Source: Mobula hypostoma (Eukaryota). From it: DNA of 64,000 bases. Shown one piece after another: positions 7,028 through 40,500 of the stretch (position 1 is its first letter; every line of letters begins with the position of its first letter). The stretch is from assembly GCF_963921235.1 (NCBI RefSeq), contig NC_086097.1:39248001-39312000 (forward strand). The letters are read 5' to 3'. Both the position numbers and the translations under genes were made by a program. A model generated the notes under the pieces. The model was not told where the DNA came from. It saw nothing but the letters and a program-made list of their open reading frames with translations, and searched no databases.

Positions 7028-7141
7028 GGCCCGAAATGTCGACTGTACCTCTTCCTATAGATGCTGCCTGGCCTGCTGCGTTCACCAGCATTTTTTTGTG
7101 TGGTTGTTTGAATTTCCAACATCTGCAGATCTCCTCGTGTT
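7028..7141 (+). mobile_element. Penelope tail copy with the 3' half of the hammerhead
   Basis: ggcccGAAATGTCgactgtacctcttcctatagatgctgcctggcctgctgcgttcaccagca... Confidence 0.75.
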
Positions 7142-7436
7142 AGCAATTATTAAAAGTGAGGGAGGAGAGAGGAAATTATTTCTGCTATTCTTAATAACAA
7201 AAGTAGGAACATGTTTTGAACTTTTGAATGCAATAATTTTATAGGGGCTCGTCATATGTATGGGTGTCCATAATTTGGGCATTTGTAATTTGAGGATGGC
7301 CTGTGTTTTTGTGTTTTATTTCCTAAGGGAAATGCACTGGAAATAAGTATTTGAAATCATTTCTAAAGATTTTTTTTAACTGTTCAAAATCATCTGTTTC
7401 TGATCATGTTTTTTTAATATATTTTATTCCCTGCAG

Positions 7437-7588
7437 TGAATAAGCAAACAAAGATAAAGGAGGATGGTTTATTAACCTCTGAAGAATTTGAAATTTGGGA
7501 CAGAAAATTCCGATTGAAAAATGATTTAAGAGAACCAAGATTAATATTGTTTCCATTTGAATTTGTGAAAGATGGATCAAAAGATATG
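7437..7588 (+). CDS. FANCM: FANCM exon (human exon 12 equivalent), MHF1/2-binding region
   Basis: ccctgcag acceptor, ATG|gtaatg donor. Encodes NKQTKIKEDGLLTSEEFEIWDRKFRLK, resembling human LKKDWFLSEEEFKLWNRLYRL. Confidence 0.88.
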
Positions 7589-13500: not shown

Positions 13501-16500
13501 CATACCAGGCACCCAGTACTCTCTTTTTAAAAACAACTTGCCACGCACATCTCCTTTGAACTTAACCCTCTCTCACCTGAAATGCATTCCCTCTGGTATT
13601 AGACATTTCAACTTGGGGAGTGGGGGGGAGGGGAGATACTGTTTGTCTATTTATGCCTCTTATAATCTTATAAACCTCTATCAGATCTTCCTTCCACCAA
13701 TGCCAATCCAGCGAAAACAACACGTTTGTCCAACCTTTCATTAAAGCACATGCCCTTTAATTCAGGGAGCACCAGGTAAACCTCTTCTGCACCCTCTTCA
13801 AAGCCTTGACCTCTTTCCTATAATGCGACGATCAGAACTGTATGAAATAGTCCAGGTGTGGCCTGACTGGAGTCTTATAAAGCTGCAAAGTAACTTCCTG
13901 ACTTTTGAACTAAGTGCCTCGACTAATAAAGTCGAGCATGCTATATGCCTTCTTAACCATCCTATCAACCTGTGTAGCCACTTTCAAGGAACTACAAACT
14001 CGGACCCCTAGATCCTTCTGCTCATCAGCACTGTTAAGGGCTCTTAATTTTATCTGTTCATAGCCCACATACGTAGAAATGCTGTGATTTATGTAGCCAA
14101 TTTGTATGTTGTTTTAGAGCTTGATTACATTAAATGTTTAATCTTTTAATAATTTGCATTTTTATTTGCAGAGTGACTGTGGCTATTCATTGGAAATTAT
14201 GCCTTATTTAAATAGAAATGATATTTTCGAAACAGCCATCACACCACAATCTAAATTTACACCTACATCCATTGCAAGTAATCAAGAAAAATGTAAACTG
14301 GATCAGTTAACGAAGCCTATGCAAGAGAGGAAGAAATGTAAAAATAATCGTGTAAACCAAAATATGCATATGTTAATGGATGAAGATCAGGAAAGCTCTC
14401 TTGTTAACACAAGTAAAATAAAAAGATCTAGGGGTTTTTGTTCCTCCTCTAGTCTTGAAGTTGTAAATTCCAAAGAAGCAAAGGAGTCTGCACTGTGTGT
14501 TGCAGGGAATTGTAGAGGTGAAGACGTTCCCTCTGAAGATGCTATAACAAAACCTGATGAACAGATCTGCCTGTCAGAGGGAGAAACTGAAGTAGAGATA
14601 AGTAACAATGTGCAGAGTATATCTTGTTTTGATTTGTTAGGATCAAGGGAAATACTGGAAGATCACATAAAAATCAATTTGAAAGATGTTTCTTCTGAAA
14701 ACAGATCAACTAACACCAAACCTAAAACTGATTACACAAGGAAGAAAGAAAGTGGAGGGTGCGATGAATTGAACAATGTTGACTCTGGCCATGATAGTCA
14801 ATTAAAGAAATCAGCAATGTGTGAAAGAAATCTATCCAAATTGTTTTATCTCCCAGAGTCTGTCCAATTTCAGAACCACAATATACATCGAAGTTCTTCA
14901 AATTCAAGCCGAGCAAGAAATGGATATTATTCACTCGATGTTGAACATTCCAGTTATGAATCAGAATATTCCAATGACAATTTAATAAAGCAGGTTCCTG
15001 CTGGCATTGAAATAGTTCTGGAAAATGTAACAAATTTTCTTAATACATCTCCTCCTGTAGACGGGTTTCCCTTTTTAGAAGAAGGGAATTATTGGCAATC
15101 AACTGCTTTAGAAACAGCAGCAGTTAATGTTTTAAATCCCCAGAAAGGTGGTTCACCAGCAGTCAATATTAAATCACCAGCTTTAATGACTTGCAAAGAG
15201 AGTGTGACCTTTGAACCCTTGACCAATCATGGTAATGCAGGATCCAGCCCCTCCTGGGATGATTTATTTGATAACAGTATTGAATATTTGGAACAAGATC
15301 ATAAAGCTCAGTCAAATATAATTGAAGAAGAAATATTTAATTCCTCACACCAGTGTCATAACAAGATTGAAGAAAATAAAAGCAAAAACATAACATTGAA
15401 GGACTCTATAAAGGATGAGCTATTTGTATACGAAAACAGTTTGTCTTTGTTTGAAGATAACCTGTCACGTACTGATCTTTCAACTCTCTGCATTCTGAAC
15501 AATAAAACCTGTGCAATCACAGAGGATATCTCTGGACCCCAGCAGCAGTCCACTGTGTTGAATGAGCCTGTCCAAAATGTGCAGGCATCCACCAACAAAA
15601 CTTTGGAAAATGAAGAACCTAAACGAGGTGTAACAGGAGAGTCAATTCTGCATGAAAATATATGTGTTGATCAGCATAGACCTGATACTAATGATAGTAG
15701 CAGTAATATGTACAACTGTTCAGATGAATTATTTTCTGTTAACTTTGATCTAGGCTTTTCATTTGAAGATATTGCTAGAGGTGGCGAGGCTTCTATGACT
15801 AATACTATGTACAGCAAAAGCACTGAATGCTCAAAACATTTTGCAGAAAAACCTTCAGAAAATGTGGAGATTCAAGATGAATGCAGCAATGTGGCTGATT
15901 CAGAATTATTTGTTGAAGCAGCAAAAATAAAAAGGAAGTACTCTACACCAATTTCTTTGAAACATACATCTTTACAACCTGGCAAAATGGATACTTGTAA
16001 TGAAATACGACCTTCGACAACACAGGATTTATTTTCTCCAATTTCCCAGCATGATCGCCAGGTTTTCTGTACCTCATCTCCAGCCTTTGCATCCATTACA
16101 CCAGAAAGAAGATCTCCCAACTTCTGCAATACTACTTTTAGCAAAGTGCTGTTTAAAAACAGTCCAGTGATTTCTCAAAATGCTGTAATGAGGAATGTTA
16201 CAGAAAACATTGAGGTTGTTAAAAATGGTTTCTTTTCTGAATTGGAAGATTGTCCTGACAATTCTGAGGCTGCCATGAAATACAATGCAAGTGGAAAGCA
16301 TGGAGAGAAATCACTTAAAAATAACAATCCGAATATTTTCTGCAAAAATCTTTTAACATCTATCAATGGTAAGATACTTAACTTTAAATTTTGATTATTA
16401 ATATATTCTTAATTTTAAAAATTATTATTAGTTATAGCTTAAATGTGTAAAATAGGTAACCTGACTGGAAACACAATCTTATTGTATTTCTTAATGTTTT

Positions 16501-19500: not shown

Positions 19501-22500
19501 TTACCAAGTAACACGAAGATTGCAAAATTCTTATTTTGGATAACTGTTCAGCTCACCCCAAAGCTGAACTCCTGTGTACCAATGATGTTTTTACAGTGTA
19601 TTTACCACCAAACTGTACATCGCTTATCCAACCTCAAGACCGAGGAATACTGCGCTCTCTAAAAGCCAAGTATTGCTCACTTTTCCTGAAACATTGGTTA
19701 GATCAGGTGAATGCTGGCCATTCTGTTCAAGCATTTATTAAAGAATTTAACATGAAGGACGTTCTTTGGTTCATTGTTCGAGGGTGAGAGAAGGTAGAAG
19801 CTTCAACACTAAAGAATGGCTAGCATAAGTTGTGGCCTGCCTTGAGGTTTGGTAATGCGCCTGAGGAAAAGCTTGACGATGATTTTTCAGGATTTTGTGT
19901 ACCAAAGGAGACAGAAGTTGTTCATGATTTGCTTATGTATGCAAAACGTGTTACAGGACCTGCTTTTGAAGATACAGCAAGTAGTCTTAATGAAGAAAAT
20001 CCATGTGAGTGGATGATCGTCAATGACAAAACACCTGTTGTGCATCACCTTATGGACTCAGAAATCATAGACAGTGTTCTGAATGCTGATAAAACATTGC
20101 AAATGATGAAGATGGCAGCAGTGATAAAACTGAAAGATTTACTATTGAATTAACAAGTTAATTGAGTTGTTGGGTGATTTAGTCAAAGAGTTGAAGAAAC
20201 GTACCTTTGTGACAGAAAGCTAATGAATTTTTATTTGATGCAAGAATAATTACACAGAGAGAGAGATCAAATCACATGAAACAACATCAGCTGGAGTAAA
20301 TGTTTAACAAGATAACTAAGAAGCAACATTCTTTGTAAGCACAGTAATTAATAAATATACATTTACTTTTTGTTTAATTAATAATCCTTTTTAAGCTTCT
20401 CCAGTCCATTTTTGCCATTATTATTATATGACCTCTTTAAATCTGGCAAAAATGTTAATCTGGCAAGGCTCAGGAACTGAGGGTGCCAGAAAATCAGTGG
20501 TCAACCTGTATATAAAATTATGAGAAGCATAGACCAGGGTGGAAATGTCACATACTAGAGGAAATGGATTTAAGGTGGGAAGGTGAAAGTGTAAAGTAGG
20601 TTTATGAGACTTTTTTTTTCCACACAGAGTAATAGGTGCCTGGATTGTACTGTCAGGTGTAGTTGTCAAGGTAGATGAAATAGAGGTGTTGAAGAGGCTC
20701 TTATGCTATGAATATGCAGGGATTGGATTGGATCGGGTCAATGTGGATCATGTGCAAGCAAAAGAAAATTGATGTCATTAGCATAATTAGTTTGGTACAA
20801 CATTGTGGGAGGAAAGACTTGTTCCTGTGCTGTAATGTCCTGTGCACTGTATCTTCCATGGTCCTAATAAAGATAAGATAGCTGGCTGAAGCTAATGGGT
20901 TGTGACCCTGTGTATAAAAGGGGCAGAACTTCTCACAGACTGCTATTTTACATTTTAGTATTTAGTTAATTACAAAACTTTTCATTCTTGCTTGCTATAA
21001 TACTTGCATCCCTTAAATGGTTAGGAATCAATTATTGATGATGTCTTTAATTTTGAATAAGATTTTATGAACAGTTATAGTAAATTTTGTGCAAACACGA
21101 GGAAATCTGCAGATGCTGGAAATCAAGCAACACACATCAAAGTTGCTGGTGAACGCAGCAGGCCAGGCAGCATCTCTAGGAAGAGGTACAGTCGACGTTT
21201 TGGGCCGAGACTCTTCGTCAGGACTAACTGAAAGAAGAGCTAGTAAGAGATTTGAAAGTGGGAGGGGGAGGGGGAGATCCGAAATGATAGGAGAAGACTG
21301 GAGGGGGAGGGATGGAGCCAAGAGCTGGTCAGTTGATTGGCAAAAGGGATATGAGAGGATCATAGGACAGGAGGCCTAGAGAGAAAGAAAAGGGGGAGGG
21401 GGAGAAATAAGCCCAGAGGATGGGCAAGGGGTATAGTGAGAGGGACAGAGGGAGAAAAAGGAGAGAGAGAGAAAGAATGTGTGTGTATATAAATAAATAA
21501 CGGATGGGATACGAGGGGGAGGTGGGCATTAGCGGAAGTTTGAGAAGTCAATGTTCATGCCATCCGGTTGGAGGCTACCCAGACGGAATATAAGGTGTTG
21601 TTCCTCCAACCTGAGTGTGGCTTCATCTTGACAGTAGAGGAGGCCATGGATAGACATATCAGAATGGGAATGGGACGTGGAATTAAAATGTGTGGCCACT
21701 GGGAGATCCTGCTTTCTCTGGCTGACAGAGCGTAGGTGTTCAGCGAAACAATCTCCCAGTCTGTGTCGGGTCTCGCCAATATATAGAAGGCCACATCGGG
21801 AGCACCGGACGCAGTATATCACCCCAGCTGACTCAGGTGAAGTGTCGCCTCACCTGGAAGGACTGTCTGGGGCCCTGAATGGTGGTAAGGGAGGAAGTGT
21901 CAGGGCACGTGTAGCACTTGTTCCGCTTAGCAGCATCAACCAGGTAGCGGAACCAAAATTTCTCTACGCCTTGCAGCCAGCCAGCCACCTGACACGCGCC
22001 CGCCCGATCTACCCACCACAGGTCAGTGCGGGATGGCTCAGGAGTCGTGGTGACGGGTTCAGACGCGAGCAACGGCCTTTCGTTTGCAGTATTTACGTTC
22101 GGCAAGGCAGGATGTGGGTTTTCTCTTTCCTTCAATGCCTCCCGCTATCAGCATAGCCGCCGCCGGTCATACTCACCGCGTGCCGCAGCTGCGAATTCTC
22201 ACCACTGCGCCGCTGCCCCCGAAATGGCGACTGCTGCTGCTGCCATGGAGCTAACTCGAGAGAGGACGGTCGTGTGGTCCACACATTTTAATTCCACATC
22301 CCGTTCCCATTCTGATATGTCAGTCCACGGCCTCCTCTACTGTCAAGATGAAGCCACACTCAGGTTGGAGGAACAACACCTTATATTCCGTCTGGGTAGC
22401 CTCCAACCTGTTGGCATGAACATCGACTTATCAAACTTCCGCTAATGCCCCACTTCCCCTTCGTACTCCATCCGTTATTTATTTTTATACACACATTCTT

Positions 22501-25500
22501 TTTCTCTCTCTCTCCTTTTTCTCCCTCTGTCCCGCTCACTATACCCCTTGCCCATCCTCTGGGTTTTTCCCCCCTCTCCCCCTTTTCTTTCTCCCTGGGC
22601 CTCCTGGCCCACGACCCTCTCATATCCCCTTTGCCAATCACCTGACCAGCTCTTGGCTCCATCCCTCCCCCTCCTGTCTTCTCCTATCATTTTGGATCTC
22701 CCCTTCCCCCTCCCACTTTCAAATCTCTTACTAGCTCTTCTTTCAGTTAGTCCTGATGAAGGGTCTCAGCCCCAAATGTTGACTGTATCTCTTCCTAGTA
22801 AATTTTGTCTTATTTTCTCCTAATGATAACTGATATCAAAAGGCCTTTCTCCTGCTCTCTTGGAATTGCATTCAAATGTGATTACCTTGTTCTCAATTAC
22901 ACGTGGTCAGAAATGTTGCAATGGATAATGTGTAAGGAGTAATTTTTATATGAGAATTCAACAATGTAGAAAGCAATGTTGAAGCATTGACAGAGCATAG
23001 GAAGGCATTACGTAGAACTTAAGTAGAAAGTAAATGAGTGCACAGAGAATTAGGCACATACGGATAAGTAGCAAAGGAGTGTTGAGTTAGAATTCACCAG
23101 GAATAACTGTTGTATAAGAGTGGTTTCATGATTTGGTCAATGCTGGTAGTTTATTGGAAAAATTATATCTTCCAGGCATAAAACACAGCTGTAAAGTTAA
23201 AATTGACCATTAAGTAACAGTGGTTTTGAACTTTTAAATAGTTTAATAATTTTTAAAGAAAAATAATTTTTTTTTAATGTCTGGTAAAATGCATTTTTTC
23301 CCCCAGGTGAATGCGACAGTGAGAGTGATGAAGATGTTATCAGAAGACCTAATAAAAGAATAAAATTCTCTTCTCTTGAGTCTCCTGAGGTGGGTCACCA
23401 AAATACAGCTTGTTGCAGCATTTTTCTTCACCAGAAGGAACAGTTTTTCACTTAACTAAGAATGAGTGGTTAAAAAAAGTTGTAGTTTTATGCTATTGGC
23501 ATTCAATCACTTGAATCTGTTCCACCATTGATATAACTTATGGTTATCTGTACTTTGCCTCCATTAACCTAGTTTTTGTCCCATGATCCTCCTAATATGC
23601 TGGATGATCTCCTGCTAGGGTGCTGTCTGATATCGTACTAAATTAAATGTTGACCGATTTTAGTTTGGTTAGTACTCGGTGTTTTTCTAGAATTCTTTGA
23701 AGAGTTGAGGGAAACATAGATACGAGGGGTGATTGATAAGTTCGTGGCCTAAGGTAGAGGAATCAATTTTAGAAAACCTAGCACATTTATTTTTCAACAT
23801 AGTCCCCTCCTACATGTACACACTCAGTCCAGCGGTCGTGGAGCATACAGATCCCTTCTTTGTAGAAGTGGTCCACAGCAGGGGTGATTGATAAGTTCGT
23901 GGCCTAAGGTAAAAGGACGTGAGTTATTAACTTCAAACTTTCCGCATTATCACTCAGAGAGTTGAACTGCACGTGCATGTGATGAGAGTGTCTTGGACCT
24001 CCAGGTGGTCCACAGCTGGGGTGATTGATAAATTTGTGGCCTAAGGTGGAAGGTGATGAGTTATACAGCTCTTGTTACATGCACGTGCAGTTCAACTCTG
24101 TGAGTGAAAATGCAGAAAGTTTGAAGTTAATAATTCATCTCTTTTTATGTTAGGCCACGAGCATTCCCTGCTCTCATGCCTGGGCCCTGCTGCCTTGATT
24201 CGACTACCTTCCTGCACCTTCGAGACTTTGTTGGGTCAGGTCACACAGGCTGTTCAAAAGCTGAACTCTGAAAGGGAAGTTACGGGCTATTGATTGCAGT
24301 GAATGTTTACCAGAAAGAGTGTGATAGTTTTCTTTGTAGTAGTTTTCTTTGTTTTGTTTGCTACAGGAAAGTGGCTGTCTTAAACTGATGTAAATACTGA
24401 AGTATTGCAGGGATTGATTCTTTACCCTCAATTGGTTACTATTGATATGAGTGATCTAGAGAAGGGAATGAAATGCATGCTTTCCAACTTTGTCAATACA
24501 AAAATATGATGAGGACTTTGGATTCTGCAAAAGAATATTGATAGATTGAGTGACCAGGTGAAAATTTGACAAATGGGGGGAAAGTATCAGGTTATGAACC
24601 TGACAGATTATTAGACTGCAAATAGGTGTGGTTAAAAGGATCTAGGTTTTCTAGTACATGAATCACAAAAAGTTGGCAGGTCCAACACAAAAAAAGCAAC
24701 ATTTTTCAAAAAGCTTGGAGTTTAAGAATAGGGAGGTTTTGTTGCAGTTATACAGGGCATTGGTAAGGCCTCACCTGGAATACTATGCAGCTTTGGCCCT
24801 CTTTCTTTCAGTAAAAAAGGGATGGAGGTTGTTCAAAGGAGATTCACCAGGCTATTTCCTGAGATATAGAGGATTGTTCTATCAAGGGATGCTAGATAAT
24901 TTAGATCTGTATTCTGAGTTTAGAAGAATGAAGGGTGACCTTATTCAAACACGCAAGATCCTGAGGGGGATTGAAATGTTATGATGTTTTCACTTGTGGG
25001 AAAGTGAAGGGATGTAACTGCAAAATAAAACTGAAGTGTGCAGAAATTTCTTTTTATTGAAGGTGTTAAATGCCTGGAATTCTTTGTTCCCATGAATGGT
25101 GGAGGTCAGTTAATTGCACATAATTGTTGGTGATATATTTGCAAAAAGTTGAGGGTTATGGGGTTCTGGCATAGAGGTGGGTGGGAAACCACTGTTCAGT
25201 GCTTTAACATTCCTATTAAATACTCCTGTCTGGATTTAGTCAATAAAAAAAATTGGTTTTAAACCAACTTAGTTTTATTTTAAAGGCTTTTATACCCTTG
25301 TAATTTCATATTCACGCAACTTAGTCTTGCAACAAAATCCTTTTACATTCCAATATTCATCTGATGAATCAGTATTCTAGCCTTTCAAAAGACCACTGTA
25401 TCATAGAACATAGAGTACTACAGCACAGTACAGGTCCTTTGACCCATGATGTTGTGCAGATCTTTTAACTTACTCTTTGTATCCTTGGTGAAATCTGCTT

Positions 25501-28500
25501 AAAATGTACCATATTACTCCTAAAGGCATGTGACAATGCGAATGACGATCCATCAAGTGATTGTTGACCATTGACTGAGAGCATATTTAGATTTGTAGTG
25601 TTCATGGAGGCACAGTTCAGTGGGGCTGTACTACATTGAAGTACGTTCTAAGGACTCCAATATTCACTCTGCAGCTGTTGATCATAGAAGAAGCTTAAAT
25701 CATCCCAGTGTGGAATTATTTCTGTAATATTTGGAACAATTGGCATAAAATGTTTTTCTGTTCAGTTCTGGGTATTGAAGAGAGCCTTAAGAAACAAGAT
25801 AAAAGACATGGATATAAAAATATACCTACATGAAAATGAACCTGTGCTGCACCCACAAATGAGAACAATGGAAGACGTTCTTTTTGTCCTGATGAAGGAT
25901 CGCGGCCTGAAACATTGACTATTTATTAATTTTCATAGGTGCTGCCTGACCTGCTGAGTTCCTCTAAAATTTTGTATGTTCGTCTGGATTTCCAACATCT
26001 GTAGAATCTCTTGTGTTCTTGTTTGTATAGTGCTGATGAACTTTTTAAAAAATAGTGAGTGGAAAGTAGTCGTAATTTTCATGCAAGTGTTCAATGTTGT
26101 AGGTGATGGGTGCCAGTGACATGGATTCGCCTATTTTGGCTGTACGAAAACAAAGAAAAGTGCCTAATGTATGTAAATTAACATTTTCAGTGGAACATAA
26201 TTTTATTAATGGTTCTAGAAGCTGAGGGTTTACAAGCTAGCCTACATTGTTATTTATTTATAATAAGTAGGAGAAATAATTTTAACTGCACCTTTTTTAG
26301 AAGCTAAAATGGAAAATTGAGCACAATTCAAGATCTTTTTGTCATATTAAAACAAGCTAAGGTTTTGGAAATTTAGCTTTTATTGTAAAACGTTATATTG
26401 TTAAAAGGAAAAAAATGAAATTTATGAAAACACACTATGATAAATTGCTTTTGAGAATTTACAAATCTGACTTTGCCTAAGGACCAGAAATAAGTAATAC
26501 TAATGCTGCAAGCGCTAAATGTTTATTTTTTTCTGTATAGTTTTTGTTAGATTTCTAATATATGAAACTGTATTAATCTTTTAATTAGGTGTACGCTTTG
26601 TGGCCGCTTTATTAGGTACAGGAGTGGACCCTGGTGTGGTCTGCAGCCCATCCACTTCAAGGATTGATGTGTTCTGTGTTCGGAGCTGCTCTTCTGCACA
26701 CCACTAATGTAACACATGGTTATTTGATTTACTGACTCTTTTCTGTCAGCTTGAAGCAGCCTGGTCATTCTCCTCTAACCTCTCTCATTAACAAGGTGTT
26801 TTTGCCCGCAGAACTACCACTCATTGGATGTTTTTTATTTATCAAGCCATTCTCTGTAAACTCTAGAGACCGTTGTGCGTGAAAATCCCAGGAGATGAAC
26901 AGTTTTTGACATAACTCAAACCATCCTGTATGGAGCCAACAATCATTCCATGGTCAAAATCACTTAGCTCAAACTTTTTCCCCATTCTGATGTTTGGTCT
27001 AAACAGCAACTGAACCTCTTGATCATGCCTGTGTGGTTTTGAGCACTGAGTTGCTGACACGTGATTAGATATTTGCATTAACGAGCAAGTGTATATGTGT
27101 ACCTAATAAAGTGGCCACTGAGTATACAGCTAGGTTCTTCTATACACCAATATGACACTGATATACTGGGTAAATGGAATGGAACTAAAGCTTGATCTAT
27201 GGGTGATTTACCTTCTCAGTTAGGCTTCACGGATAGTGAAGATGATGATTTTAGAGCAACTTCAAGCAAGAATAATAAAGATACCAAGTTATCCAGAAAT
27301 ATTCATCATCCCTGGAGCAAGGTTGGTTAAACCCCAGTCACAGATTTAATTATTACATGAGATTGTATACAGGCTCTTTTTTGTTGGAATATGCTGCAGG
27401 TAAGTGATTTGTTACAGATAAGTATTATATATATGACAAACAGTCACAAATAGTACTTCCTATATAGTCTTAAAATGAAATTGCTAACCTAAAAAATCCA
27501 TAGCGATTCTGATCTTGGCCACAGTTTGGATTGGATTTGTTCTCCAAGTGATTTGCTACCATGGAAACATAACCTTGAGCAGATGTCATTCCAGTTTAGT
27601 TCCAGTTGTTTAAAAATGGCTGTTTGTGCAAATAATGAATTCACTGTTGATGTGGACTAATCACAAGATCTGAGTTTGAGAATAGTCTTTTTTTAAATTG
27701 TAGGCATAGGTTTTGCCTTTGAGCAAAACCTCTGAATCTAGTGAACAGCAAGCTATACAAACATGACGTGTTTCTGAGCTTCCTGCATGCAAAATTAGTA
27801 AGGCAAACTGTTAATCCCTCTGATTATGAAAACAAGTTTTACATCATTCTTAAATTTTAACATTGCAGTGCTTAGGGAAAAAAAGTTGTATAAAAATGAA
27901 GTTTGACAATATTGCAGTAAAGTCAGTAACAATCAAATGTTGTCTCACCATAGCTAATTGTGTAAAATGGGACAGCTCCAATTATGTTATCAATGTTACC
28001 AGTGAATTCAGATTATTTTAGGGAATTTATATTTCGAACTCAATAAACTTGATGTATTGTTCTCCTCAACACAAGTACTTCTTAATATTTAAATTTAATT
28101 TATGGAACTATTAGCATTTAATTCTTATATTACCATTGCAATATTGATGTTAAGGATACTATCAGAACGAGCTATTCAAGTGCAAAAAGATTTGTTTGTT
28201 TGTTTTATTGACTACACAAGTATTTGATAAAGTGAAGCACAATAAGTTATTTGAAATATTACAGAAAACTCTAGATCTAGATAGATGGAGAAGTGAGTCA
28301 GTTTATGAAAATCAAGAGAGGCATTAGACAAGGGTGTGTTTTCTCCCCTGATTTATTTAATTTGTACAGTGAAACAATATTACAAAAGCTTCGTTTTCAA
28401 AATTATCCGGCGTAGTGTGGACGTAGCCTAAGACACAGCTGCAGTGTACCTTTCTCCAAAGTGCATTATTGTTATTTCTATGAATTGCTCTGAGTAACAC

Positions 28501-31500
28501 TAAGGCTACGTCCACACTACGCCGGATAATTTTGAAAATGAAGCTTTTTCTCTTTGTTTTGACTCTCTGTCCACACTAAAACGGCGGTTTCATCCCCCGA
28601 AAACGGAGATTTTCAGAAATGGTCTCCTGAGTGAATAAATCTCAAAACGCCTAATATCCGTTGCAGTATGGACATGGGAAACGGAGCTTTTTAAAACCGC
28701 TGTCATGATGTGCCGCAACAGATGGCAGCAGTGCAGCATTTCATTGTTTTCTTCTTCTTATTATTATTATTATCACTTTATTGTCACCAAACAATTGATA
28801 CTAGAGCGTACAATCATCACAGTGATATTTGATTTTGTGCTTCGCAGAACCTAACAATTTTAGAACAAACGGCAACAAGACTGAAGCCAGAAGAGTTAGA
28901 AATGTACTTACCAAATACTTTGACCCATAGCTTACTGAATAAATAAGTATACTCACTTTGCCCTGTTTTCTGTCCTTACTTGTATGAAGGTGGTTTACCT
29001 ATTTATGCAAGTACTTCTCTGACAATAGATGTGTAACAGCCTAATGTAACATTGTATGGAAATACAAGATAACACTGATGCAGACATGTTTTATACATTG
29101 AACAAGGTGCTTTATTAATGCAACAGAGTTAGTTAGTTCTTCAATGTTCATCGTCAGCCGGGTCATATTGTCTGTGAACTCCCTGTTGGTTGCCTCCATA
29201 CACTCCAGTATTTGTTGTTTTTTAGTTTTAAGTCCTCCTGCGTGAGAGCCAAGAGCAATTCCTTTTAAGTTTTTCTACTCTGTAACTGGACAAACACGCA
29301 CCAAGTATACCGTTTCCTCTTCGCTTGTTTTCTGTGTGTCCTGCGCATGCCCAGTAGTAAGAAATTTGCCCAAATATCCGCGATATTTTGAAAAATGCTT
29401 AGTGTGGACGCCTGTCGTTCTTACTCGAAACTGACGTTTTCAAAATTATCCGGCGTAGTGTGGACGTAGCCTAATTCTGTGGCCTCTGCTATTAAGGCAA
29501 GGGATAATCACCTACAAGTTCCCATGAATTCACACCTCATTCTTACTTGGAAAATAATTACTGTTCCTCTATTTCCTGAACTCCCTAGCCTAGGGCAATG
29601 TGGGAGCACAGTCATCCAATGAACAGGAGCTGTTAAGATGATTTATTGCTACATCCTCGAGATCTAAGGGTGGGGGTGGGGTCACTGAATGCTGGTTTTG
29701 TCAGCTATACATAGGTCCCATAAAATGAGTAAGATATTCACTTAAGAGAGCTGTTAGAAAGCATGTTTCAGAATCGCCGGTTCTATGTTGAATGAGGTGG
29801 GAAGCACAGCAGGTGACGTATTCAGAAGAATGGTTTTCCTTGGGGAAGTGTGCTTTCACCACTGCTGAACAACATCTACACGAATGACCAGCCTATAGAT
29901 GATGTCACACGCCGTTTTATATATGCTGATGACTTATGCATCACTGCCCAAAGCACTGATTTTAACACCATGGAGAAAACGCTTTCTGAGGCCTTGGAGG
30001 GACTAACATCCTACTATGAAGAAAACCATCTCCGCGCAAACCCATCAAAGATGCAAGTTTGTGCATTCCATCTCAGGAACCATGAAGCCAAACGACAGCT
30101 TAAAGTAACCTGGTGTGGAGCAACGCTGACGCATTGCGAGCACCCTATCTACTTAGGAGTCACCCTTGACAGATGCCTCATCTTCAAGAACCTCATCAAT
30201 AAGACAAAGTCAAAAGTGAGCGCACGAAACAACATCCTGAATAAGCTCACTAACATAAAATGGGGAGCAAGCTTGAAAACATTGCGAACCAGTGCACTTG
30301 CTCTTCACTGCCGAAGATGCCTGCCCTGCATGGGAAAGATCTACTCATGCGAAGAAGATGGATGCCGTTCTGAAAGTAAGCTGCCAACTTATCACAGGTT
30401 GTTTAAAACCAACAAACACCAACAGCCTATATATCCTGGCTGGTATCGCTCCCCCGATATAAGAAGAATGGTAGCCAGCAAGAAAGAACGACTCCATCAA
30501 ACATCAGATGAGAAGCACCCTCTACATGGTCATACACCTACACCCAACCACCTAAAGTCAAGGAGGAGCTTCATGAACAGTGTTGTTCCATTACAATCAA
30601 CCCCATCTGAAGCCCGCATCGCCTTGTGGAAAGACCGGTTCCCAGTCTCAAACAACACCCAATGATGGAAATTCCACCAGATGAAAGCCTGTCCCCAGGA
30701 GCTAATTGCAACTGGGCAACCTGGAAGTGCCTTAACAGACCTAGGACTGGTGTAGGTCGTTCAAAGATGTCACTAAGCAAATGGGGATATACAACCAGCC
30801 CAACAACTTGTGAACGTGGAACTGGGCCAAAAACTATGCAACATCTCCAGCAATGCCCATCGCTAGAGGAACCCTGTACTGTTACAGATCTTGCCGAATT
30901 CAACAACAAGGTGCAACAATGTGTCCAGTTCTAGCTGGGCCATGTATAGACTGTCCGTGGACACGATACGAAGAAGTAAGGCATTGAAGAAGAAAATGGC
31001 TATCAGGCCACTCTTTAACCCTCAGGAAAGCCCCTCTTTAAAGCACCATTCCCTTATTAGCAATTTACATTGTATGCCTTTAAGATAAAAAGATATATAT
31101 TTTATAATGAATGTACTTTTAAAGTTGTGGTTCTGATATGTAGAAGTGTAAAACCTCAAATTTATAAGCATTTCTAATTTTGTAAGAGCACAATTTGTTG
31201 CCAACATACCCTTCTTATTACAATGCAGATACATGAAATTTTGAAAAGACAAATTTGTGTTTATTGAATACACTAATTATGCTTTCTCTGATAGCATTCT
31301 GCTCGACACTTTCTTGATGAAGAGGCTGAACTTTCCTCAGAAGGAGCAGAAGATGTGTCTTCTGATGAAGATGAATCCAATAACATTGCTGATACTTCTT
31401 TGAAAAATTTTATCAATGATGAGTCCCAATTTTCACAAGTTTCAAAAGGTAACTTTTTGGAACCATTTAAAATATGAAACCTATATTTATGTATTATTGT

Positions 31501-34500
31501 TCACAAGAAGCTGTTCTGTTCATATGATTTGCAGTTGTATTTTTCACAAAATATGTAATTAATTAGTTATTGATAGTGCAATGAATCGAGGCTCTGCTAA
31601 ATCCCCCTGTTTATGTTTGTATGTTTCAGGACAAAATCTGGTTTGTTAACATTGCAGATATATAGCCTCCTGTTATGCTGTCAAGATTCACTGGATTTGA
31701 AAATAACATTGTGGAGGGGAGAGGCATTATGGAATAAAACCAACATTCATATTTAGAAAAGGAGTGAACAGAAAAATCAATATGAACACAAATTAGAAAT
31801 ATAGTTACATTTTTTTGTTCTTTATAGAGAAATTAGATCACTAGGCAGTGACTAGGTCTTTTGTGGATTTACATGGAAAACCTAAACTATTAGCAAGAAT
31901 GGGATCTAAACTCTTCTTTGCAAGATATATGCAGAATCAAGTTAGATAATTGTGTAAAAGTATTTCCTTACAAATGCCAATTTTTCAATAATTAGTTCAC
32001 AAACAGAATCAGAGGAACATGATTCCTTATCCTTGCATCTGTAGTCAGGAAAGTGTTATTTCTGAAAAATTTGTTAATATAAAAGTAGTAGTATTATAAA
32101 GAAAACTATTTGTATTTAAATTCCATAAAGAAAGCTATGTTACTTAAATATTTTTACATTAAATTATTATTTGTTGGATAATTCTGCAGTCAAGACTGAT
32201 TTAGATTAAAAGGAATATGGGCCATTCTGGTTCCAAGAAAATGATCTGCTTTTGAAAGGCAAACAACAGGAATTCTGCAGATGCTGGAAATTCAAGCAAC
32301 ACACATCAAAGTTGCTGGTGAACGCAGCAGGCCAGGCAGCATCTCCAGGAAGAGGTACAGTTGACGTTTCAGGCCGAGACCCTTCGTCAGGACTAACTGA
32401 AGGAAGAGTTAGTAAAAGATTTGAAAGTTGGGGGGGAGGGGGAGATCCAAAATGATAGGAGAAGACAGGAGGAGGAGGGATGGAGCCAAGAGCTGGACAG
32501 GTGATTGGCAAAGGGGATATGAGAGGATCATGGGACATGAGGTCTGGGGAGAAAGACAAGGGGGGGGAGAACCCAGAGGATGGGCAAGGGGTATAGTCAG
32601 AGGGACAGAGGGAGAAAAAGGAGAGTGAGAGAAAGAATGTGTGTATAAAAATAAATAACGGATGGGGTACGAGGGGGAGGTGGGGCTTTAGCGGAAGTTA
32701 GAGAAGTCGATGTTCATGCCATCAGGTTGGAGGCTACCCAGACGGAATATAAGGTGTTGTTCCTCCAACCTGAGTGTGGCTTCATCTTTACAGTAGAGGA
32801 GGCCGTGGATAGACATGTCAGAATGGGAATGGGATGTGGAATTAAAATGTGTGGTCACCGGGAGATCCTGCTTTCTCTGGCGGACAGAGCGTAGGTGTTC
32901 AGCAAAGCGGTCTCCCAGTCTGTGTCGGGTCTTGCCAATATGTAGAAGGCCACATCGGGAGCACCGGAAGCAGTATATCACCCCAGCCGACTCACAGGTG
33001 AAGTGTCGCCTCACCTGGAAGGACTGTCTGGGGCCCTGACATTCCAGGATGAGGGAGATGTCCTCCTTTTTTAAAGAAAGGGGCTTCCCTTCCTCCACCA
33101 TCAACTCTGCTCTCAAACGCATCTCCCCCATTTCACGCACATCTGCTCTCACTCCATCCTCCTGCCACCCCACGAGGAATAGGGTTCCCCTGGTCCCCAC
33201 CTACCACCCCACCAGCCTCCGGGTCCAATATATTATTCTCCGTAACTTCCGCCACTTCCAACGGGATCCCACCACTAAGCTCATGTTTCCCTCCCCCCCC
33301 ACTTTCCGCAGGGATCGCTCCCTACGCGACTCCCTTGTCCATTTGTTCCCCCCATCCCTCCCCACTGATCTCTCTCCTGGCACTTATCCTTGTAAGTGCT
33401 ACACATGCCCTTACACTTCCTCCCTTACCACCATTCAGGGCCCCAGACAGTCCTTCCAGGTGAGGCGACACTTCACCTGTGAGTCGGCTGGGGTGATACA
33501 CTGTGTCCGGTGCTCCCGATGTGGCCTTCTACATATTGGCGAGACCTGACACAGACTGGGAGACCGCTTTGCTGAACACCTATGCTCTGTCCGCCAGAGA
33601 AAGCAGGATCTCCCAGTGACCACACATTTTAATTCCACATCCCATTCCCATTCTGACATATCTATCCACGGCCTCCTCTACTGTAAAGATGAAGCCACAT
33701 TCAGGTTGGAGGAACAACACCTTATATTCCGTCTGGGTAGCCTCCAACCTGATGACATGAACATTGACTTCTCTAACTTCCGCTAATGCCCCAGCTCCTT
33801 TTTCTCCCTCTGTCCCTCTGACTATACCCCTTGCCCATTCTCTGGGCTCCACCCCCCCCGCCCCCGTCTTTCTCCCTGGACCTCCTGTCCCTTGATCCTC
33901 TCATATCCCCTTTGCCAATCACCTGTCCAGCTCTTGGCTCCATCCCTCCTCCTCCTGTCTTCTCCTATCATTTTGGATCTCCCCCTCCCCCTCCCACTTT
34001 CAAATCTCTTACTAACTCTTCCTTCAGTTAGTCCTGACGAAGGGTCTCAGCCTGAAACGTCGACTGTACCTCTCCCTAGAGATGCTGCCTGGCCTGCTGC
34101 GTTCACCAGCAACTTTGATGTGTGTTGCCTGCTTTTGAAAGACAAGCTGAAACTAAATTATCCCCCCACATTGAGTTGGTTTGACTAAGTTTGGGTTACA
34201 CCTTTGTCATGGTGCTAGTGTTTTTAATACATATATATTTAAATTTTAAACTGTTTGAGCTTCTCTGGAGAAACGCAATGTTGTTATCATATTGAATGAA
34301 TTATTTGTTGTTTTCCTTAGACATTGATATGCAAGAAATTTACCTGAAATCTGTACGCAGTCCAAGTGTCTATAAGAAGAAAATGGTCTATACCAGAAAT
34401 GACATGGCCATATTTTCACAGGTAGGTGTGCCTTGTGTTACCAGCAGAACAGATCCTACAAAATCACAGCACAGTGGCTGAGTAGGTGGGAATGTAATAT

Positions 34501-37500
34501 AATGATTGTTTGCATCAGTCTTGTATGTCAATAAAACTGATTTTCGTGTTGTATAAGGACAGGATAATTTGATCTAGTCTCTAGTCTGAGGGAGCCAGAG
34601 GCCATGGTGTGCTTCAAATGCTGAGGTAAAGACAGTTTTCAAGGTAGGTGGAGAAAAATTGCATTAATTGTGATTTTTTTCCTAGAAAATATCTAGAGGT
34701 AGGGCCGCATTAATTTGAGTGAGGTATATATTAAAGTAAACTTGTGTTAAAACAACAATGACTTTAGTCCTCTAGTTTCTTAAGTGTTTCACCACTGGGA
34801 ATTTTTACCTGTCTCCATTTTGGGGTATTGATTGAGGTGCATTTCATGGATGAATTAAATATCTTTGTCTTTTTCTATACCCTACAAGTGCCTATATGGT
34901 AATAAGCTGGATGGGATTTATTTTTCCCCCTATCAATTCACTTGTTAACATTTCATGTTCAGATCAAGTTTAATGAAGGGTTTATACAAACATTTCTTCT
35001 TTAATAAGGTGTGGCTGGTGAGATTTCTTCTTCAGCAGTTCCTCAGTGTTTCTGTGTGATTGAATCCAATGTGGGAACAGCAGGTTCTTCCAGAGATCGA
35101 GCTGGAAGTGCTTAATAGGGTGGGTTAAAGTTTGAAGTGATGTGTATTTTTTAATATTTATGTGGGACTTGTCAAAGTCAGTCAAATACAGACACATGTC
35201 CTTTGCTTTACCATGTACATCCTGGCCATCAAATAGACATCGATTCTCAGCTCATTTTTCTGTACATTGTCCATAGTCTTCTATGCCTTACTATTTCAAT
35301 ATTTGTGTAATAGACCATAGAATAGTACAGCACATGAGCAGGGACTTTGGCTCACGATGTCTGCACTGAGTGTGATACCAGTCTAAATGAATCCCACTGG
35401 CCTACGTATGGTTGTATCCCTCCATTCTCTACCTGCTCATGTGGCTGTCTAAATGACTCTTAAATGTTGCTGTTGTATTGCTTTCATGACCTCCTTTGGC
35501 ATGTTCCAGTTACCTACATACCACTCTCTGTTTAGAAAAAATTGCTTCATAAATCTGCTTTAAAAGTTTCCCCTTCTCACCTTAAAGCTATGTCTTCTAG
35601 TGTTTGATATTTCCACTTTAAGGAAAACACTGACTGGTTCCTCTGTCTATGTCTCCAATAATTTTACATCTATCTGGTTGCCCCTCAGCCTCTGATGCCT
35701 CCCCTTATAGGAAATACTGTCTAGCCTAGGCAACATCCTGGTGAACCTCTTCTGCACCCTATCCAAATCCTCCACATCATTTCTGTAATGCACTGATTAG
35801 AACTGTATACAGTAATCTAAATATATCTTAACCAGTTTTATACAACTGCAACATGACTTTGTGACTTCTATACTCATCACCCTGACTGATGAAGGGAGGA
35901 GTGCTGTACACCCTCTTTAGCACCCTATAAACGTGTTGCCACTATCAAGGAGCTATGGACTAGTGTCTCATGATCCTTCTATACACGTGTTTTTAAGAGT
36001 CCTGCTATTTACTGCATACTTTCCCTTTTCACTTAATCTCCCAAACTGCATCTGCTACCTCTCTGCCCACATTTCCATTTGGTTTTTATCCCACTGAACC
36101 TTTTGGCAACATTCCTTTCTATCCTTAGCTCAAATTGCTGTGTTACATGTAAACTTACTGATCAATTCATCTCAATACACTCAAAAGGCTGGAGGAACTC
36201 AGCAGGTCAGGTAGCATCTATGGAACAAATATACGGTCAATATTTTGGGTTGAGATGGATTGATCTACATACATCTACATTTTTATCAAAATGATTTGTA
36301 TGTATCACAAAAGACAGAGGTCCCAGCACTGACTCTTGTGGAATACCACAGGTCACAGACCTCCAGTCAGAATAACACTCCTTCCACCACTACCCACTGT
36401 CTTCAAGTGTATGGTCATTCAACTATGCACGTGTATACAGCTAAATGAAACAACGTTCCTCAGGGACCAAGCTGCAAAACACAGTACATATATCACATAC
36501 AGCACATAAAATAATATTAACAGTTAAAATATTCTGTAAAAGTACAAGTTGGCATAAAGTGTATATATGACATGGTTAAATGTACATCAGTATCACTGCT
36601 ACTGGTGCTGTCATATATAATGTGTACTGGGTGATAGCAGGGTGTTCAGAGGTTTCACAGCTCGGGGGAGGAAACCGTTATCCAGCCCAACAGTCCTTGT
36701 TCTTATACTGCAGTACCTTGTGCCTAATGGTACGAGGTCAAAGAGATTGTGGGACAGATGGGAGTGGTTCTTGACAAAATGAGGGATCTGTGAACACAGC
36801 ATTTCTGGTGTATGTCCTGGATGGGGTGGGAGGGGGTATAAGGAGACCTCAGTGATTCTCTCAGCAGTCCTCACAATCTGTTGCAGGGTCTCGCAGTCTG
36901 ATGCATTGCAATTCCCATACCAGATCTGGTCAGGACAGTCTCGATGGAGTTCTGTTAGGATTTGGTTAGAATGGAAATGGGGAGCCTCAGTCACCCCAAT
37001 TTCCTCAGGAAGTGGAGATTGCCAGGCCAATTTTGAATCCATTTTACCAAGTCTCCTTGGACCCTAATCCTCTGTATCAGCATACAATGAGGGAACTAGT
37101 TGAAAGCCTTACTAAAGTCCGATAATGAACCTTGGCAGCAGCTTTACTAAGGATGTGAAAATATAACTGTCTTCCCCATTCAAGTGTCAGTGCATTAGAT
37201 TTCAACCACTCTTTGGGTGGAAAAACTCAGATCCCCACTAAACGTCCTATGCTTTAGACGCCTCTCTGTGGGGAAATTTTCTTGCTTCTCCCCTATCTAC
37301 ACCCTTCATTATTTTGTATACACCTCTTAGTCTGCCCTTCAACTTCCTCTGTTCTAAGAAAAGCAAGGCCATTTTTTCCAGTTTCTCCTCATAATTGAAT
37401 CACACTATCCCAGGCATCAGCTTGGTGAACCTGCAGTGTAATCACATCCTTCCTTTAGTACAGCGATCAGAACTTTACATAGTGCTCGTTGAGGCCATAT

Positions 37501-40500
37501 CATGTTTTATAAAGTTGTACCATAACCACCTCTTGTGTGCTCTCCGCTTCTGGGGTTGGTTAATGAAGGCATGTGTCCCATATGCCCTGATAACTTCCTC
37601 ATTAATAGTGCTGCCTCCTTCAGGAATCCATGGATTTGCATGCCAAAGGCCCTTCTTAATACACACTCTGGCTCAAACATGCATTAAGTTTTCCCTTACT
37701 TTATTAATCTTCCCAGGTTGCACTGCCATGTGCTAAAGTGTACAGTTTTTGATGATATCTTGAATACTCCTTCTTCACTTTACGTGGCTATAGACTGGAG
37801 ATTCCCAAGAGACAGTGGGATATTGCATTTTGTCTTGAAAGACTTCAGAACATTCTTGAATCTTTTCCCCGTCTCATGACAGAACTTGTGTCTTTATTGG
37901 GAGTGTGATTTTTGGCATCCAATCGATGGCCTTGCAGGGAATTTGGAGGACTTTTACAGAGTTTGTGTTGGTGGTACATTTTCTGTCCTTGAGTTGCCTG
38001 GCAGTCCAGGAATCAAAAGTATGTAGAATATAAACACGAGATTCTGCAGATGCTGGAAATCCAGTGCAACAAACACAAAATGATAGAGAAACTCAGCAGG
38101 TCAGGCAGCATTTATGGAGAGGAATAAACAATAGGTGTTTTGACCTAAGACTTCATCAGGACTGTTGAGGAGGGGAGAAAATAAGAAAAATCTGATTGCT
38201 TTTGGCGTTTGTATTCATACTTGATTTCCAGTGTTTGCTTTTTTCCCCTTAAATTAAATTTGTTAATAGTGATGGGGTATTACATTCTAAGCCAATAATT
38301 ACAAGTTTACTTTCTGACCTGTTATAATAATGTTCTTCTCATGACCTCAGATCCCTGAACAGGATGAAACCTACTTGGAAGATAGTTTTTGTGTTCGGGA
38401 AGATGATGAAAATCAAACTGAATTAAGTGATGATGATATTGTTAATTTTGATCTCATTGGAGAAGACAATCAGTATTTAACTCGGCACAGAATGAGATCA
38501 AAAAAGGCAGAAAATCAAAATGGCAAAGATGAGTTATCCAAAAAAAAGAAAAGCAGACGCATCATTTTATTGGATGATTCCAGTGAAGAGGAATTAGATA
38601 CGAATATGAAACGTCAATTGGCAGAAAGTGTTCCGATACAAGACAGCAAGAGTAAACAGACTCCTGAAGATAAAAATGTTACCTTATGTTCTTCTGGACA
38701 AAGATTGGATAGCTCTTTTAAAAAGTCCATTTCAAAAAATACTTTACGAGTAGCAGAAAGTGATAAAAGGAAACCTTCAGCTCTTTGCTCCTTGGACAGA
38801 AGCTGCATGTTCAGGTTGAATCTCCAGTCTTGTGTGTCTGAAACCTTGGACTTCCAAGTGGAGCAAAAATGTTCAAGAAGGTGCAATTCAACTCTTACTC
38901 CAGAAAGTTCAAAGATTAAATGCAACACAACGCAAGACAAAACAGAAGTAAAATCCCAAACCAATGAGCTTCACTTTATTGATCCTGTTGTAAGTATTGT
39001 TGAATGAGTGTGCTTTTGTACAATATACAAAATTAACTTTAAAATCTGACTGGCTTCTATTAATTTAATTGACTACACTGCATCCTGATTAACGTTTCTT
39101 TAACTTTCTCTATCATTATGCTTAAATTGATTGGTTTGTAGTTGCTGCGATGATTCTTGCTCATTTTTTAAAAATGTGTGTAACAGTTACATTTCACGCA
39201 GCCCTCTAGCGTCAAAGCTGTATTGAAGGATGATTGAAAGATTAGGATCATTACCTCAGCAATATCTAAACTCTCCTCCACCTTTTTTGGTTCAGCATTT
39301 CCTTGCTTCATCTTATTCCCTCTCTTATCACCCTAGATATCTTATTATTTGTTTCTTCTTAATTTTGCTACTAGTAGGAATCGTATCTGCTCTATACACT
39401 GGGCATTGTTCAATTACAGTTTTGTCTACAAATTGTTTATTAATTTATTACACCAGGTCTGTTACCAATGCGTTGAAATTTCCCGCCTATATTTGTGTTT
39501 TTACTGTAACTTTCTGCTTGCTCCTTTTCATACCCTAATCCTTGTGAACCTAAGATTGAAGATGAAGGAATTAATTTTAGACTTCAGGAAGGGGGATGTT
39601 GAGGGAACGAACACCAGTTCTTATTGAGGGATCAGAAGTGGAAAGGGTGAGCAGTTTCAAGTTCCTGTGTGTCAACGCCTCTGAGGATCTGTCCAGGGCC
39701 CAACATATTGATGCAGTTACAAAGAAGGCGTGACAGTGGTTTTGTATCATTAGGGGTTTGAGGAGAATTGGTAATGCACCAGGGACACTTGTAAATTTCT
39801 GCAGATGTACCATGGAGAGCATTCTAACTGGTTGCATCACTGTCTGGTATGAAGGGGCCCATTGCACAGGTCAGAAAAAGCTGCAGAAAGTTGTAAACTC
39901 AGTCAGCTCCATCATGGGCACTAAACGCCCCAGCATCCAAGACACCTTCAAAAGGTGATGTCTCAAAAAGGAAGCATCCATCATTAAGGTCCCTCAACAC
40001 CCTGCCATCAAGGAGGAGGTACAGGAGTCTGAAGACACACACTCAGTATTTCAGGAACAGTTTCTTCCCTTTGCCATCAGATTTCTGAATGGACAATGAA
40101 CCCATGAACACTATCTCAGTATTTTTCCACTCTCTTTCTGCACTACTTATTTATTTAAATAATGTCAGTCAGATGAAGCAAGTGTATCTGAAAGAACATT
40201 CAGAATCAGAATCAGGTTTAATATCATTGGTATATGTTGTGAAATTTGTTGTTTTGCAACAGCAGTACAATAGTTTTTATTATTCTGCATTGCAATTTAC
40301 TGCTGCTGCAAAACAACATATTTCACAACATATGCCTGTGATATTAAGTCTGATTCTGAGTGTTCTTTCAGGTACACTTACTTCACTTGACTGACTTTAT
40401 TCTCCAGCACGGTTTCTTACCTTCCTATGTTGCTAGGGTAGGAACATACTGATCACAAAGTCTTCATCGCACTTCAGAATTTCTTCCCCGTTTTGTTGAT

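What the first reader, a model, noticed from the sequence alone, without database searches (positions are those of the whole stretch)
34030..34065. Intact minimal hammerhead ribozyme on the FANCM sense strand, about 255 nt upstream of exon 19
Seen: the terminus of the Penelope-like element reads AGTC CUGACGA AGG-gucucag-CCU GAAAC GUC^GACU. It has both conserved hammerhead boxes, helix I, a short helix II, a GUC cleavage triplet and a palindromic loop-less helix III (ACGU). Established: Penelope-like retroelements carry minimal type I hammerheads, and such loop-less motifs generally cleave as dimers. Inference: this copy is transcribed within FANCM pre-mRNA, with degenerate same-strand relatives at 22744-22785, 25886-25920 and 7028-7045. 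It could therefore nick the intron, alone or by pairing with another copy, and affect splicing of a DNA-repair gene.
Basis: partly seen in the sequence, partly recalled or inferred. Interest (0 to 1): 0.72.

Follow-up and report, generated by a model that had tools for sequence, protein, structure and literature searches.

The report
Penelope hammerhead masked by own antisense
A small hammerhead-ribozyme motif really lies in a FANCM intron, but it is one of tens of thousands of copies carried by a known kind of jumping gene, and here it sits in a mirror-image insertion whose other arm is predicted to base-pair with it, so it likely does not cut the host RNA.

Summary
The motif at 34030-34065 is real, with an intact core, 255 nt before an exon that is spliced at GT..AG in 5 of 6 RNA-like runs laid. 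The motif ends the right arm of a 1,870-bp fold-back insertion (32259-34128, 13-bp target-site duplication) of a Neptune-like Penelope retroelement. The left arm is 96% complementary and is transcribed first, so 35 of 36 ribozyme bases are predicted to pair with it. Folding the hammerhead there costs about 71 kcal/mol. Even alone, inactive hairpins beat the active dimer. The site is empty in a relative's contig. The exact 36-mer occurs 2,148 times in the genome and two 34-mer variants 45,251 times. Copies show no covariation beyond transition bias. Four other sense-strand copies that pass my descriptor lie upstream in FANCM, the nearest 38 kb away. Minimal Penelope hammerheads and inverted insertions with a one-sided tail are published. 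This scan also noted the same arrangement in other genomes. Cleavage was not tested. Verdict: ordinary, likely inert; interest 0.1.

The parts
34030..34065 (+). Minimal type I hammerhead motif: core intact, loop-less ACGU helix III, G.U (or A-U) in place of the usual G10.1-C11.1 pair; putative cut at 34061/34062
   Evidence: the only motif in the window that passes the descriptor
32359..32394 (-). Second hammerhead motif, in the left arm. Its G1.1 is A, which breaks the first pair of helix I. In FANCM pre-mRNA it reads as the antisense of 34030-34065.
32259..33039 (-). Left arm of the fold-back: end of the GIY-YIG coding region, 3' region, hammerhead and complete terminus, including a 37-nt tail (32259-32295) that the right arm lacks
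33040..34128 (+). Right arm: 5'-truncated ORF end (33040-33786, in-frame stop at 33547-33549, zinc-finger linker shortened), pyrimidine-rich 3' region, hammerhead, terminus without tail. 33435-34131 is complementary to 32293-33039 at 663 of 691 aligned bases.
32246..32258 (+). Target-site duplication, left copy (13 bp)
   Evidence: empty site joins 32245 to 34129 in run X19
34129..34141 (+). Target-site duplication, right copy (13 bp)
31295..31448 (+). FANCM exon upstream of the insertion (exon 18 by recalled human numbering)
31449..34320 (+). FANCM intron, 2,872 nt, GT..AG, holding the whole fold-back element
   Evidence: joint 'skips 2872, GT..AG'; adjacent contig pieces
34321..34421 (+). 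FANCM exon downstream (exon 19 by recalled human numbering)
21091..22795 (.). A second fold-back insertion of the same family with its own 13-bp duplication (21078-21090, 22796-22808).

Best explanation
The motif is the hammerhead-bearing end of a Penelope-like retrotransposon (likely of the Neptune clade) that inserted into a FANCM intron as an inverted pair of arms, and in FANCM pre-mRNA it is predicted to be locked in a duplex of about 700 bp with its own antisense arm, so it likely does not cleave and is likely a neutral passenger removed with the intron. Shown: the motif, the two arms, the target-site duplication, the one-sided 37-nt tail, the intron ends, the empty site in a relative's contig, and the copy number. 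Predicted: RNA polymerase makes the left arm first; the right arm then zips onto it from the inner ends, so each hammerhead base pairs as it emerges. Inferred from published work on the class: the motif serves the element's own tandem RNA, where two copies pair through the ACGU palindrome, probably with help from the element's protein. That setting is absent here. Genomic copies then decay neutrally, mostly at CpG sites.
For: Arms are complementary at 663 of 691 aligned bases. In the lowest-energy fold of 32240-34325, 35 of 36 motif bases pair with 32359-32394. Forcing helices I and II costs 71.3 kcal/mol, and opening the motif for a partner costs 76.4. In all 5 nascent lengths folded, the newest 10 bases are paired to the left arm (10 of 10 in four lengths, 9 of 10 in one). 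The active double hammerhead scores -11.5 kcal/mol against -22.0 for two inactive hairpins and -25.2 for an inactive dimer. The site is empty in run X19. Genome counts: 38,644 and 6,607 for two 34-mer variants, 2,148 for the exact 36-mer. Long relatives have 819-979-aa open frames with a Cx4CxxC linker and a GIY-YIG motif in 7 of 7 fetched; RVT_1 and GIY-YIG hit in 2 of 2 scanned, below Pfam cut-offs. No covariation: 0 of 30 helix II changes are compensated, and 19 of 30 helix I double changes are U-A against 19.6 expected from independent changes. Five descriptor-passing sense copies and two antisense copies lie in FANCM, so sense copies are not depleted in this gene. The intron is spliced correctly in 5 of 6 RNA-like runs. 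Papers: monomer inactive, dimer weak (PMC4209133); the Anolis element's hammerhead needs the element's protein, and no RNA-seq reads ended at its site (PMC11167929); inverted copy plus one-sided tail is typical (PMC3846280, PMC8557442).
Against: The core is letter-perfect, and this is the only descriptor-passing motif in the window. Folding is computed at equilibrium without proteins; helicases, hnRNPs or editing could open the duplex. No run shows RNA ends, and it is not shown that the RNA donors carry the insertion. The sense/antisense count is one gene and seven copies. The Rfam hammerhead models do not recognise the motif. An efficient intronic hammerhead can lower expression up to 20-fold in zebrafish (PMC11856399, abstract), so the position would matter if it did cleave.
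Confidence: 0.88

Rival explanations
1. The motif occasionally cleaves FANCM pre-mRNA by pairing in trans with a transcript of another family copy, helped by the element's protein, for instance in germ cells where the element is active; this would slightly lower or delay splicing of this intron.
For: The core is intact. Family sequence is abundant in RNA-like runs. Long open frames exist in the genome. The Anolis hammerhead cleaves once protein is added (PMC11167929).
Against: Opening the motif for a partner costs 76 kcal/mol, far more than the active dimer's -11.5. The G10.1-C11.1 pair that PMC4209133 calls highly conserved is G.U or A-U here. Only 255 nt separate the motif from the 3' splice site, which leaves little time (inference). 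The splice joint is normal in 5 of 6 runs.
Confidence: 0.05
2. The insertion affects FANCM RNA through its long hairpin rather than through cleavage: the duplex ends 192 nt before the 3' splice site and would be a substrate for A-to-I editing, or could pair with the second fold-back at 21091-22795 across the exons between them and favour back-splicing.
For: A duplex of about -1,410 kcal/mol is predicted. Inverted matches between the two elements reach 91-93% over 248-312 nt (I2-I4). Editing and back-splicing by intronic inverted repeats are recalled knowledge, not from a call.
Against: Each element pairs best with its own nearer arm (inference). The exon join is normal. No locus-specific intronic contig was available to show editing. 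This does not exclude the best explanation: editing of core adenosines would only disable the ribozyme further.
Confidence: 0.1
3. The ribozyme has been co-opted as a regulator of FANCM splicing, like the conserved intronic ribozymes of CPEB3 or the amniote intronic hammerheads.
For: Sense orientation, intact core, and nearness to an exon. Conserved intronic ribozymes exist (PMC6765202, passages).
Against: The site is empty in a relative whose intron is about 96% identical. The motif is identical to 2,147 other genomic copies. The copy is young enough that an intact 36-mer is expected: 29 motifs pass the descriptor in 664 kb.
Confidence: 0.01

Closest known systems
Minimal type I hammerheads (min-HHR) of metazoan Penelope-like elements (Cervera and de la Pena 2014, PMC4209133; read parts 1-2 of 4, searched supplement file 2)
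   Same: CUGANGA and GAAA boxes, an extra nucleotide after A9, short helix I of 4-5 bp, loop-less palindromic helix III, location at the element's end, mostly dispersed single copies. Pairs on opposite strands were also reported there.
   Different: Helix II is 3-4 bp, shorter than the 6-8 bp of the Schistosoma and Drosophila examples. The main subfamily has U at 11.1, so G10.1-C11.1 is lost (38,644 against 6,607 copies). Counts exceed the 4,000-9,000 reported for coelacanth and Xenopus. No shark term was found in the supplement searched.
Inverted insertions of endonuclease-bearing Penelope-like elements (Adineta Pen2a, PMC3846280; general scheme, PMC8557442; passages only)
   Same: An inverted 5'-truncated copy flanks the unit, a 30-40-bp tail lies at one end only (37 nt here; the Pen2a inverted repeat is also 37 bp shorter), and a short target-site duplication surrounds the whole.
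   Different: The arms here are 0.8 and 1.1 kb and reach into the endonuclease coding region. There is no RT domain and no direct repeat in this copy. The duplication is 13 bp against 8-10 bp.
Neptune clade of Penelope-like elements (PMC8557442)
   Same: C-terminal GIY-YIG endonuclease preceded by a CX2-5CxxC linker, which Penelope/Poseidon lack; RT upstream in long relatives.
   Different: The clade was not tested on an RT tree, and Nematis (reduced linker) was not excluded by alignment. This copy's linker is shortened by deletion.
Anolis Poseidon PAc hammerhead (Frangieh et al. 2024, PMC11167929; read parts 1-2 of 4)
   Same: A vertebrate Penelope-element hammerhead just upstream of the tail region.
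   Different: A different clade. PAc was tested and cleaves only with its protein; this motif is untested.
Conserved intronic ribozymes (CPEB3 HDV-like ribozyme; amniote intronic hammerheads), from PMC6765202 passages and the PMC10919898 search listing
   Same: A self-cleaving motif in an intron of a protein-coding gene, on the sense strand.
   Different: Those are conserved across species, and CPEB3's shows measured self-scission (listing). This one is a lineage-specific repeat copy, needs a partner, and is predicted to be masked.

Membership tests
PLE minimal type I hammerhead | Core boxes CUGANGA and GAAA with a UH cleavage site | tested here: met
PLE minimal type I hammerhead | Helix I of 4-5 bp closing the motif; helix II present; nucleotide between 9 and 10.1 | tested here: met
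   5 pairs in helix I, 4 in helix II with a bulged A
PLE minimal type I hammerhead | Palindromic, loop-less helix III | tested here: met
   ACGU at 34057-34060
PLE minimal type I hammerhead | G10.1-C11.1 pair | tested here: not met
   G.U or A-U in this copy and in the main subfamily; the G-C form occurs 6,607 times elsewhere
PLE minimal type I hammerhead | Located at the end of a Penelope-like element | tested here: met
   about 245 nt after the endonuclease stop codon; the same motif follows the long ORF in 6 of 7 long relatives by pattern
PLE minimal type I hammerhead | Compensatory changes in helices among copies | tested here: not met
   one young family and its near relatives only, distant families not compared
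PLE minimal type I hammerhead | Self-cleavage as a dimer | not testable with these tools
   needs an in vitro assay; the computed active dimer is less stable than inactive folds
Rfam hammerhead families (including RF00163) | Score at the gathering threshold, or any match at E up to 10 | tested here: not met
   0 matches in the window at gathering; no hammerhead match in 32200-34200 at E up to 10
Endonuclease-bearing Penelope-like element | Single ORF with RT and C-terminal GIY-YIG | tested here: met
   in long relatives: RVT_1 E about 4e-5 and GIY-YIG E 0.0009-0.002, both under the curated cut-offs, 2 of 2 scanned; the window copy holds only the ORF end and gave no Pfam hit
Endonuclease-bearing Penelope-like element | Inverted 5'-truncated copy, one-sided 30-40-bp tail, target-site duplication | tested here: met
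   empty site
Neptune clade | CX2-5CxxC linker before the endonuclease | tested here: met
   7 of 7 long relatives; shortened in the window copy
Neptune clade | Placement on an RT phylogeny | not tested
   no reference set at hand
Conserved intronic regulatory ribozyme | Present at the orthologous site in related species | tested here: not met
   run X19 contig joins 32245 to 34129

The most novel reading that the evidence does not exclude
With about 45,000 near-identical intact hammerheads, one per 77 kb, this genome may hold thousands of latent cut sites in introns that fire when element RNA and protein are present. The fold-back insertion would then act as a built-in antisense safety catch, which would favour survival of fold-back copies inside genes. 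Unpaired sense copies, such as the G10.1-C11.1 copy 3.6 kb upstream of the window in FANCM, would be the ones that cut.
Probability: 0.05. Interest if true: 0.6.

Novelty: new member of a known kind. Interest (0 to 1): 0.1.

Why it matters
As it stands it matters little: one young copy of a very abundant retroelement end, in an arrangement already described, likely silent. It would matter if such motifs did cut host pre-mRNA in vivo, because the function of Penelope hammerheads is still open (PMC8557442, PMC11167929) and this genome carries tens of thousands of intact copies. The genome would be good material for a strand-bias test across all introns, but this copy is a poor candidate for cleavage because it is predicted to be masked.

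Tried and rejected
Rfam: no match at gathering in the window; one chance miRNA match at E 2.6 in 32200-34200. Pfam on the window's element fragments: 0 of 2 hit. Run search: no RNA holder listed on record; 18 of 24 runs are guessed RNA, all kept as contigs. Contigs cannot show RNA ends, strand or level, so the empty table of molecule ends says nothing. No locus-specific contig bridged an insertion junction in the RNA-like runs among the pieces listed (the lists are cut), so editing and the presence of the insertion in those animals are untested. Run X4 covers both exons in separate contigs, so it is the one of six without a listed join. Run X21 has a contig starting at 34129 with 55 further letters not listed, which fits an empty site but does not show it. 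The match at 14554-14587 lies in a large FANCM coding frame and fails the descriptor: rejected as chance. Covariation: none among 36 young copies; by eye 2 of the 100 listed helix II variants are compensated A-U, 0 of the 30 fetched; the U-A excess in helix I equals the independent expectation. Lunse et al. 2016 is not held; I know it only by title and through a review. One supplementary file of PMC4209133 could not be searched, and its figures are not held; they may show shark motifs. Literature searches for hammerhead + Penelope + 'cartilaginous fish' gave 0 papers, and + 'shark' gave 1 review, not read. No earlier scan note lies near this place. I did not identify the organism; 'shark or ray' comes from recall and from earlier scan notes.

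Full report
Observation. They hold both hammerhead boxes, a GUC triplet with the putative cut at 34061/34062, the ACGU palindrome, and helix I of four Watson-Crick pairs plus U.G. Helix II is better drawn with a bulged A and G.U/G-C/G-C/U.G (-6.0 kcal/mol) than as AGG/CCU (-4.6). Either way the G10.1-C11.1 pair, called highly conserved in PMC4209133, is missing. Rfam finds nothing at gathering in the window and no hammerhead at E up to 10 in 32200-34200. A descriptor of my own (boxes, helix I and II of at least 3 pairs, paired helix III) found 29 motifs in 664 kb of this genome and 0 in the reversed control; this motif is the only one in the window. The 600 kb outside the window were my choice, partly regions with listed matches, so that density is not a genome average.

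Host gene. The exon at 43246-43845 matches solved FANCM chains at E 2e-33 and the ERCC4 family. Helicase motifs lie on the same strand from about 104 kb upstream of the window. Contigs from 5 of 6 RNA-like runs laid, from two studies, join 31448 to 34321 across a 2,872-nt GT..AG intron; organism A contigs match both exons with 0 other letters. The motif therefore lies on the sense strand, 255 nt before the exon. 'Exon 19' agrees with human exon sizes as I recall them; I did not count exons. The runs' RNA status is the tool's guess, supported by the spliced joins.

The motif ends the right arm of a fold-back insertion. Positions 32293-33039 and 33435-34131 are complementary at 663 of 691 aligned bases, with 62 gap positions. 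The unit spans 32259-34128 between two copies of a 13-bp duplication. The left arm carries a second hammerhead at 32359-32394 on the minus strand, whose first helix I pair is broken, and a 37-nt tail that the right arm lacks. A contig of run X19, about 96% identical across this intron, joins 32245 directly to 34129. The site is thus empty in that relative, and the insertion is likely younger than the split. A second fold-back of the family lies at 21091-22795.

The element. The right arm encodes the end of an ORF with a GIY-YIG motif, interrupted by a stop. A protein search gave 135,481 first-look candidates, of which 150 were scored; apart from the self-match they are 88-92% identical. Seven long copies were fetched. 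All seven have 819-979-aa open frames with a Cx4CxxC linker and a GIY-YIG motif, and in six the same hammerhead pattern lies at the 3' end of the frame. Two were scanned; both hit RVT_1 and GIY-YIG below Pfam's cut-offs. The linker is absent from Penelope/Poseidon according to PMC8557442 (passages), so the family is likely Neptune; no tree was built. Genome counts: 38,644 for the 34-mer with U11.1, 6,607 with C11.1, 2,148 for the exact 36-mer, with 0 control matches each. Among 57 family ends in the 664 kb, neighbours within 5 kb form 15 outward-facing pairs, 6 inward and 6 same-strand. Fold-backs are common, though some distant pairs may be chance.

Can it cut? Alone, the motif folds best as an inactive hairpin in which GACG pairs with CGUC (-10.0 kcal/mol). 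The active double hammerhead scores -11.5 against -22.0 for two such hairpins and -25.2 for an inactive dimer. In the intron, the lowest-energy fold pairs 35 of 36 motif bases with the left arm. Forcing the hammerhead helices costs 71.3 kcal/mol, and opening it for a partner costs 76.4. In five nascent lengths the newest bases are already paired to the left arm. Without the left arm it still does not take the hammerhead fold. These are equilibrium predictions without proteins. PMC2817708 (abstract) reports that competing complementary structures block ribozyme assembly in vivo and that mRNA structures fold in sequence, which fits.

Partners. Four other sense-strand motifs that pass the descriptor lie inside FANCM at about 3.6, 27.8, 38.3 and 74.7 kb upstream of the window, the last with a U.G helix III and a GUU site; two antisense ones lie at 82.6 and 96.8 kb. 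The nearest is about 38 kb and several introns from this copy. Five sense against two antisense shows no depletion of sense copies, but it is one gene.

Covariation. Among 36 young copies, changes are mostly single transitions, many at CpG, with no compensation. Of 30 fetched copies, out of 1,803, changed at the third G of helix II, 0 are compensated; by eye 2 of the 100 listed are. Of 30 fetched copies, out of 629, changed on both sides of the first helix I pair, 19 are U-A, against 19.6 expected if the two changes are independent. Genomic copies thus look like neutral decay. Distant families were not compared, so this does not speak against selection on the motif in active elements.

Comparison with what is known. 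PMC4209133 (parts 1-2 of 4) defines these minimal motifs, reports thousands per genome in coelacanth and Xenopus, mentions pairs on opposite strands, and found no monomer cleavage and low dimer cleavage; its supplement describes a second motif on the opposite strand at a truncated element's 5' end. PMC11167929 (parts 1-2 of 4) found that the Anolis hammerhead cleaves only with the element's protein, is not needed for insertion in vitro, and leaves no RNA-seq ends. PMC3846280 and PMC8557442 (passages) describe the inverted copy, the one-sided tail and the duplication. A 2026 preprint (passages) saw cleavage in 1 of 9 Xenopus retrozyme dimers. Against my reading, PMC11856399 (abstract) shows that an efficient intronic hammerhead can lower expression up to 20-fold in zebrafish. 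I found no open paper that describes the motif in cartilaginous fish (one review listed, not read), but that is a gap in taxon coverage, not a new kind. Earlier notes of this scan report the same arrangement in other genomes; they are unchecked and are not counted as evidence.

Verdict. Best explanation: a masked, likely inert retroelement end (0.88). Rivals: an effect of the hairpin itself, which can coexist with the best explanation (0.10); rare protein-assisted cleavage in trans (0.05); co-option (0.01). New member of a known kind; interest 0.1.

Noticed in passing
L050:6389-6422 (G000:C1:39244389-39244422, +), about 3.6 kb upstream of the window: Sense-strand motif in a FANCM intron with the canonical G10.1-C11.1 pair and no family end on the opposite strand within 5 kb upstream; a better cleavage candidate than the reported copy.
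   Followed up: partly
window 21091-22795: Second fold-back insertion of the same family with a 13-bp duplication; both hammerheads broken; 91-93% inverted matches to the 32259-34128 element across intervening exons.
   Followed up: partly
genome-wide: The most abundant subfamily has U at position 11.1 (38,644 against 6,607), so the family expanded without the G10.1-C11.1 pair; this hints that strong cleavage is not needed for its spread.
   Followed up: partly
window 518-604, 36173-36219, 38090-38164, 56266-56364, 63368-63438: Older, more diverged ends of related hammerhead-bearing elements, all failing the descriptor; also stubs of the young family at 2204-2252 and 60615-60697.
   Followed up: partly
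window 29817-30662: A 282-aa frame with an RVT_1 hit (E 9e-9), a fragment of another retroelement in a FANCM intron.
   Followed up: no
L119:8169-8908 and L119:3042-4228: A long copy with two same-strand family ends about 5.1 kb apart flanking an 819-aa frame, the direct arrangement in which two hammerheads could meet; one of the two has a broken helix III.
   Followed up: no
window 31450-31535: Run X19's contig skips about 81 bases just after the 5' splice site (pieces 31201-31453 and 31535-31710 are adjacent in the record): an indel between the species.
   Followed up: no
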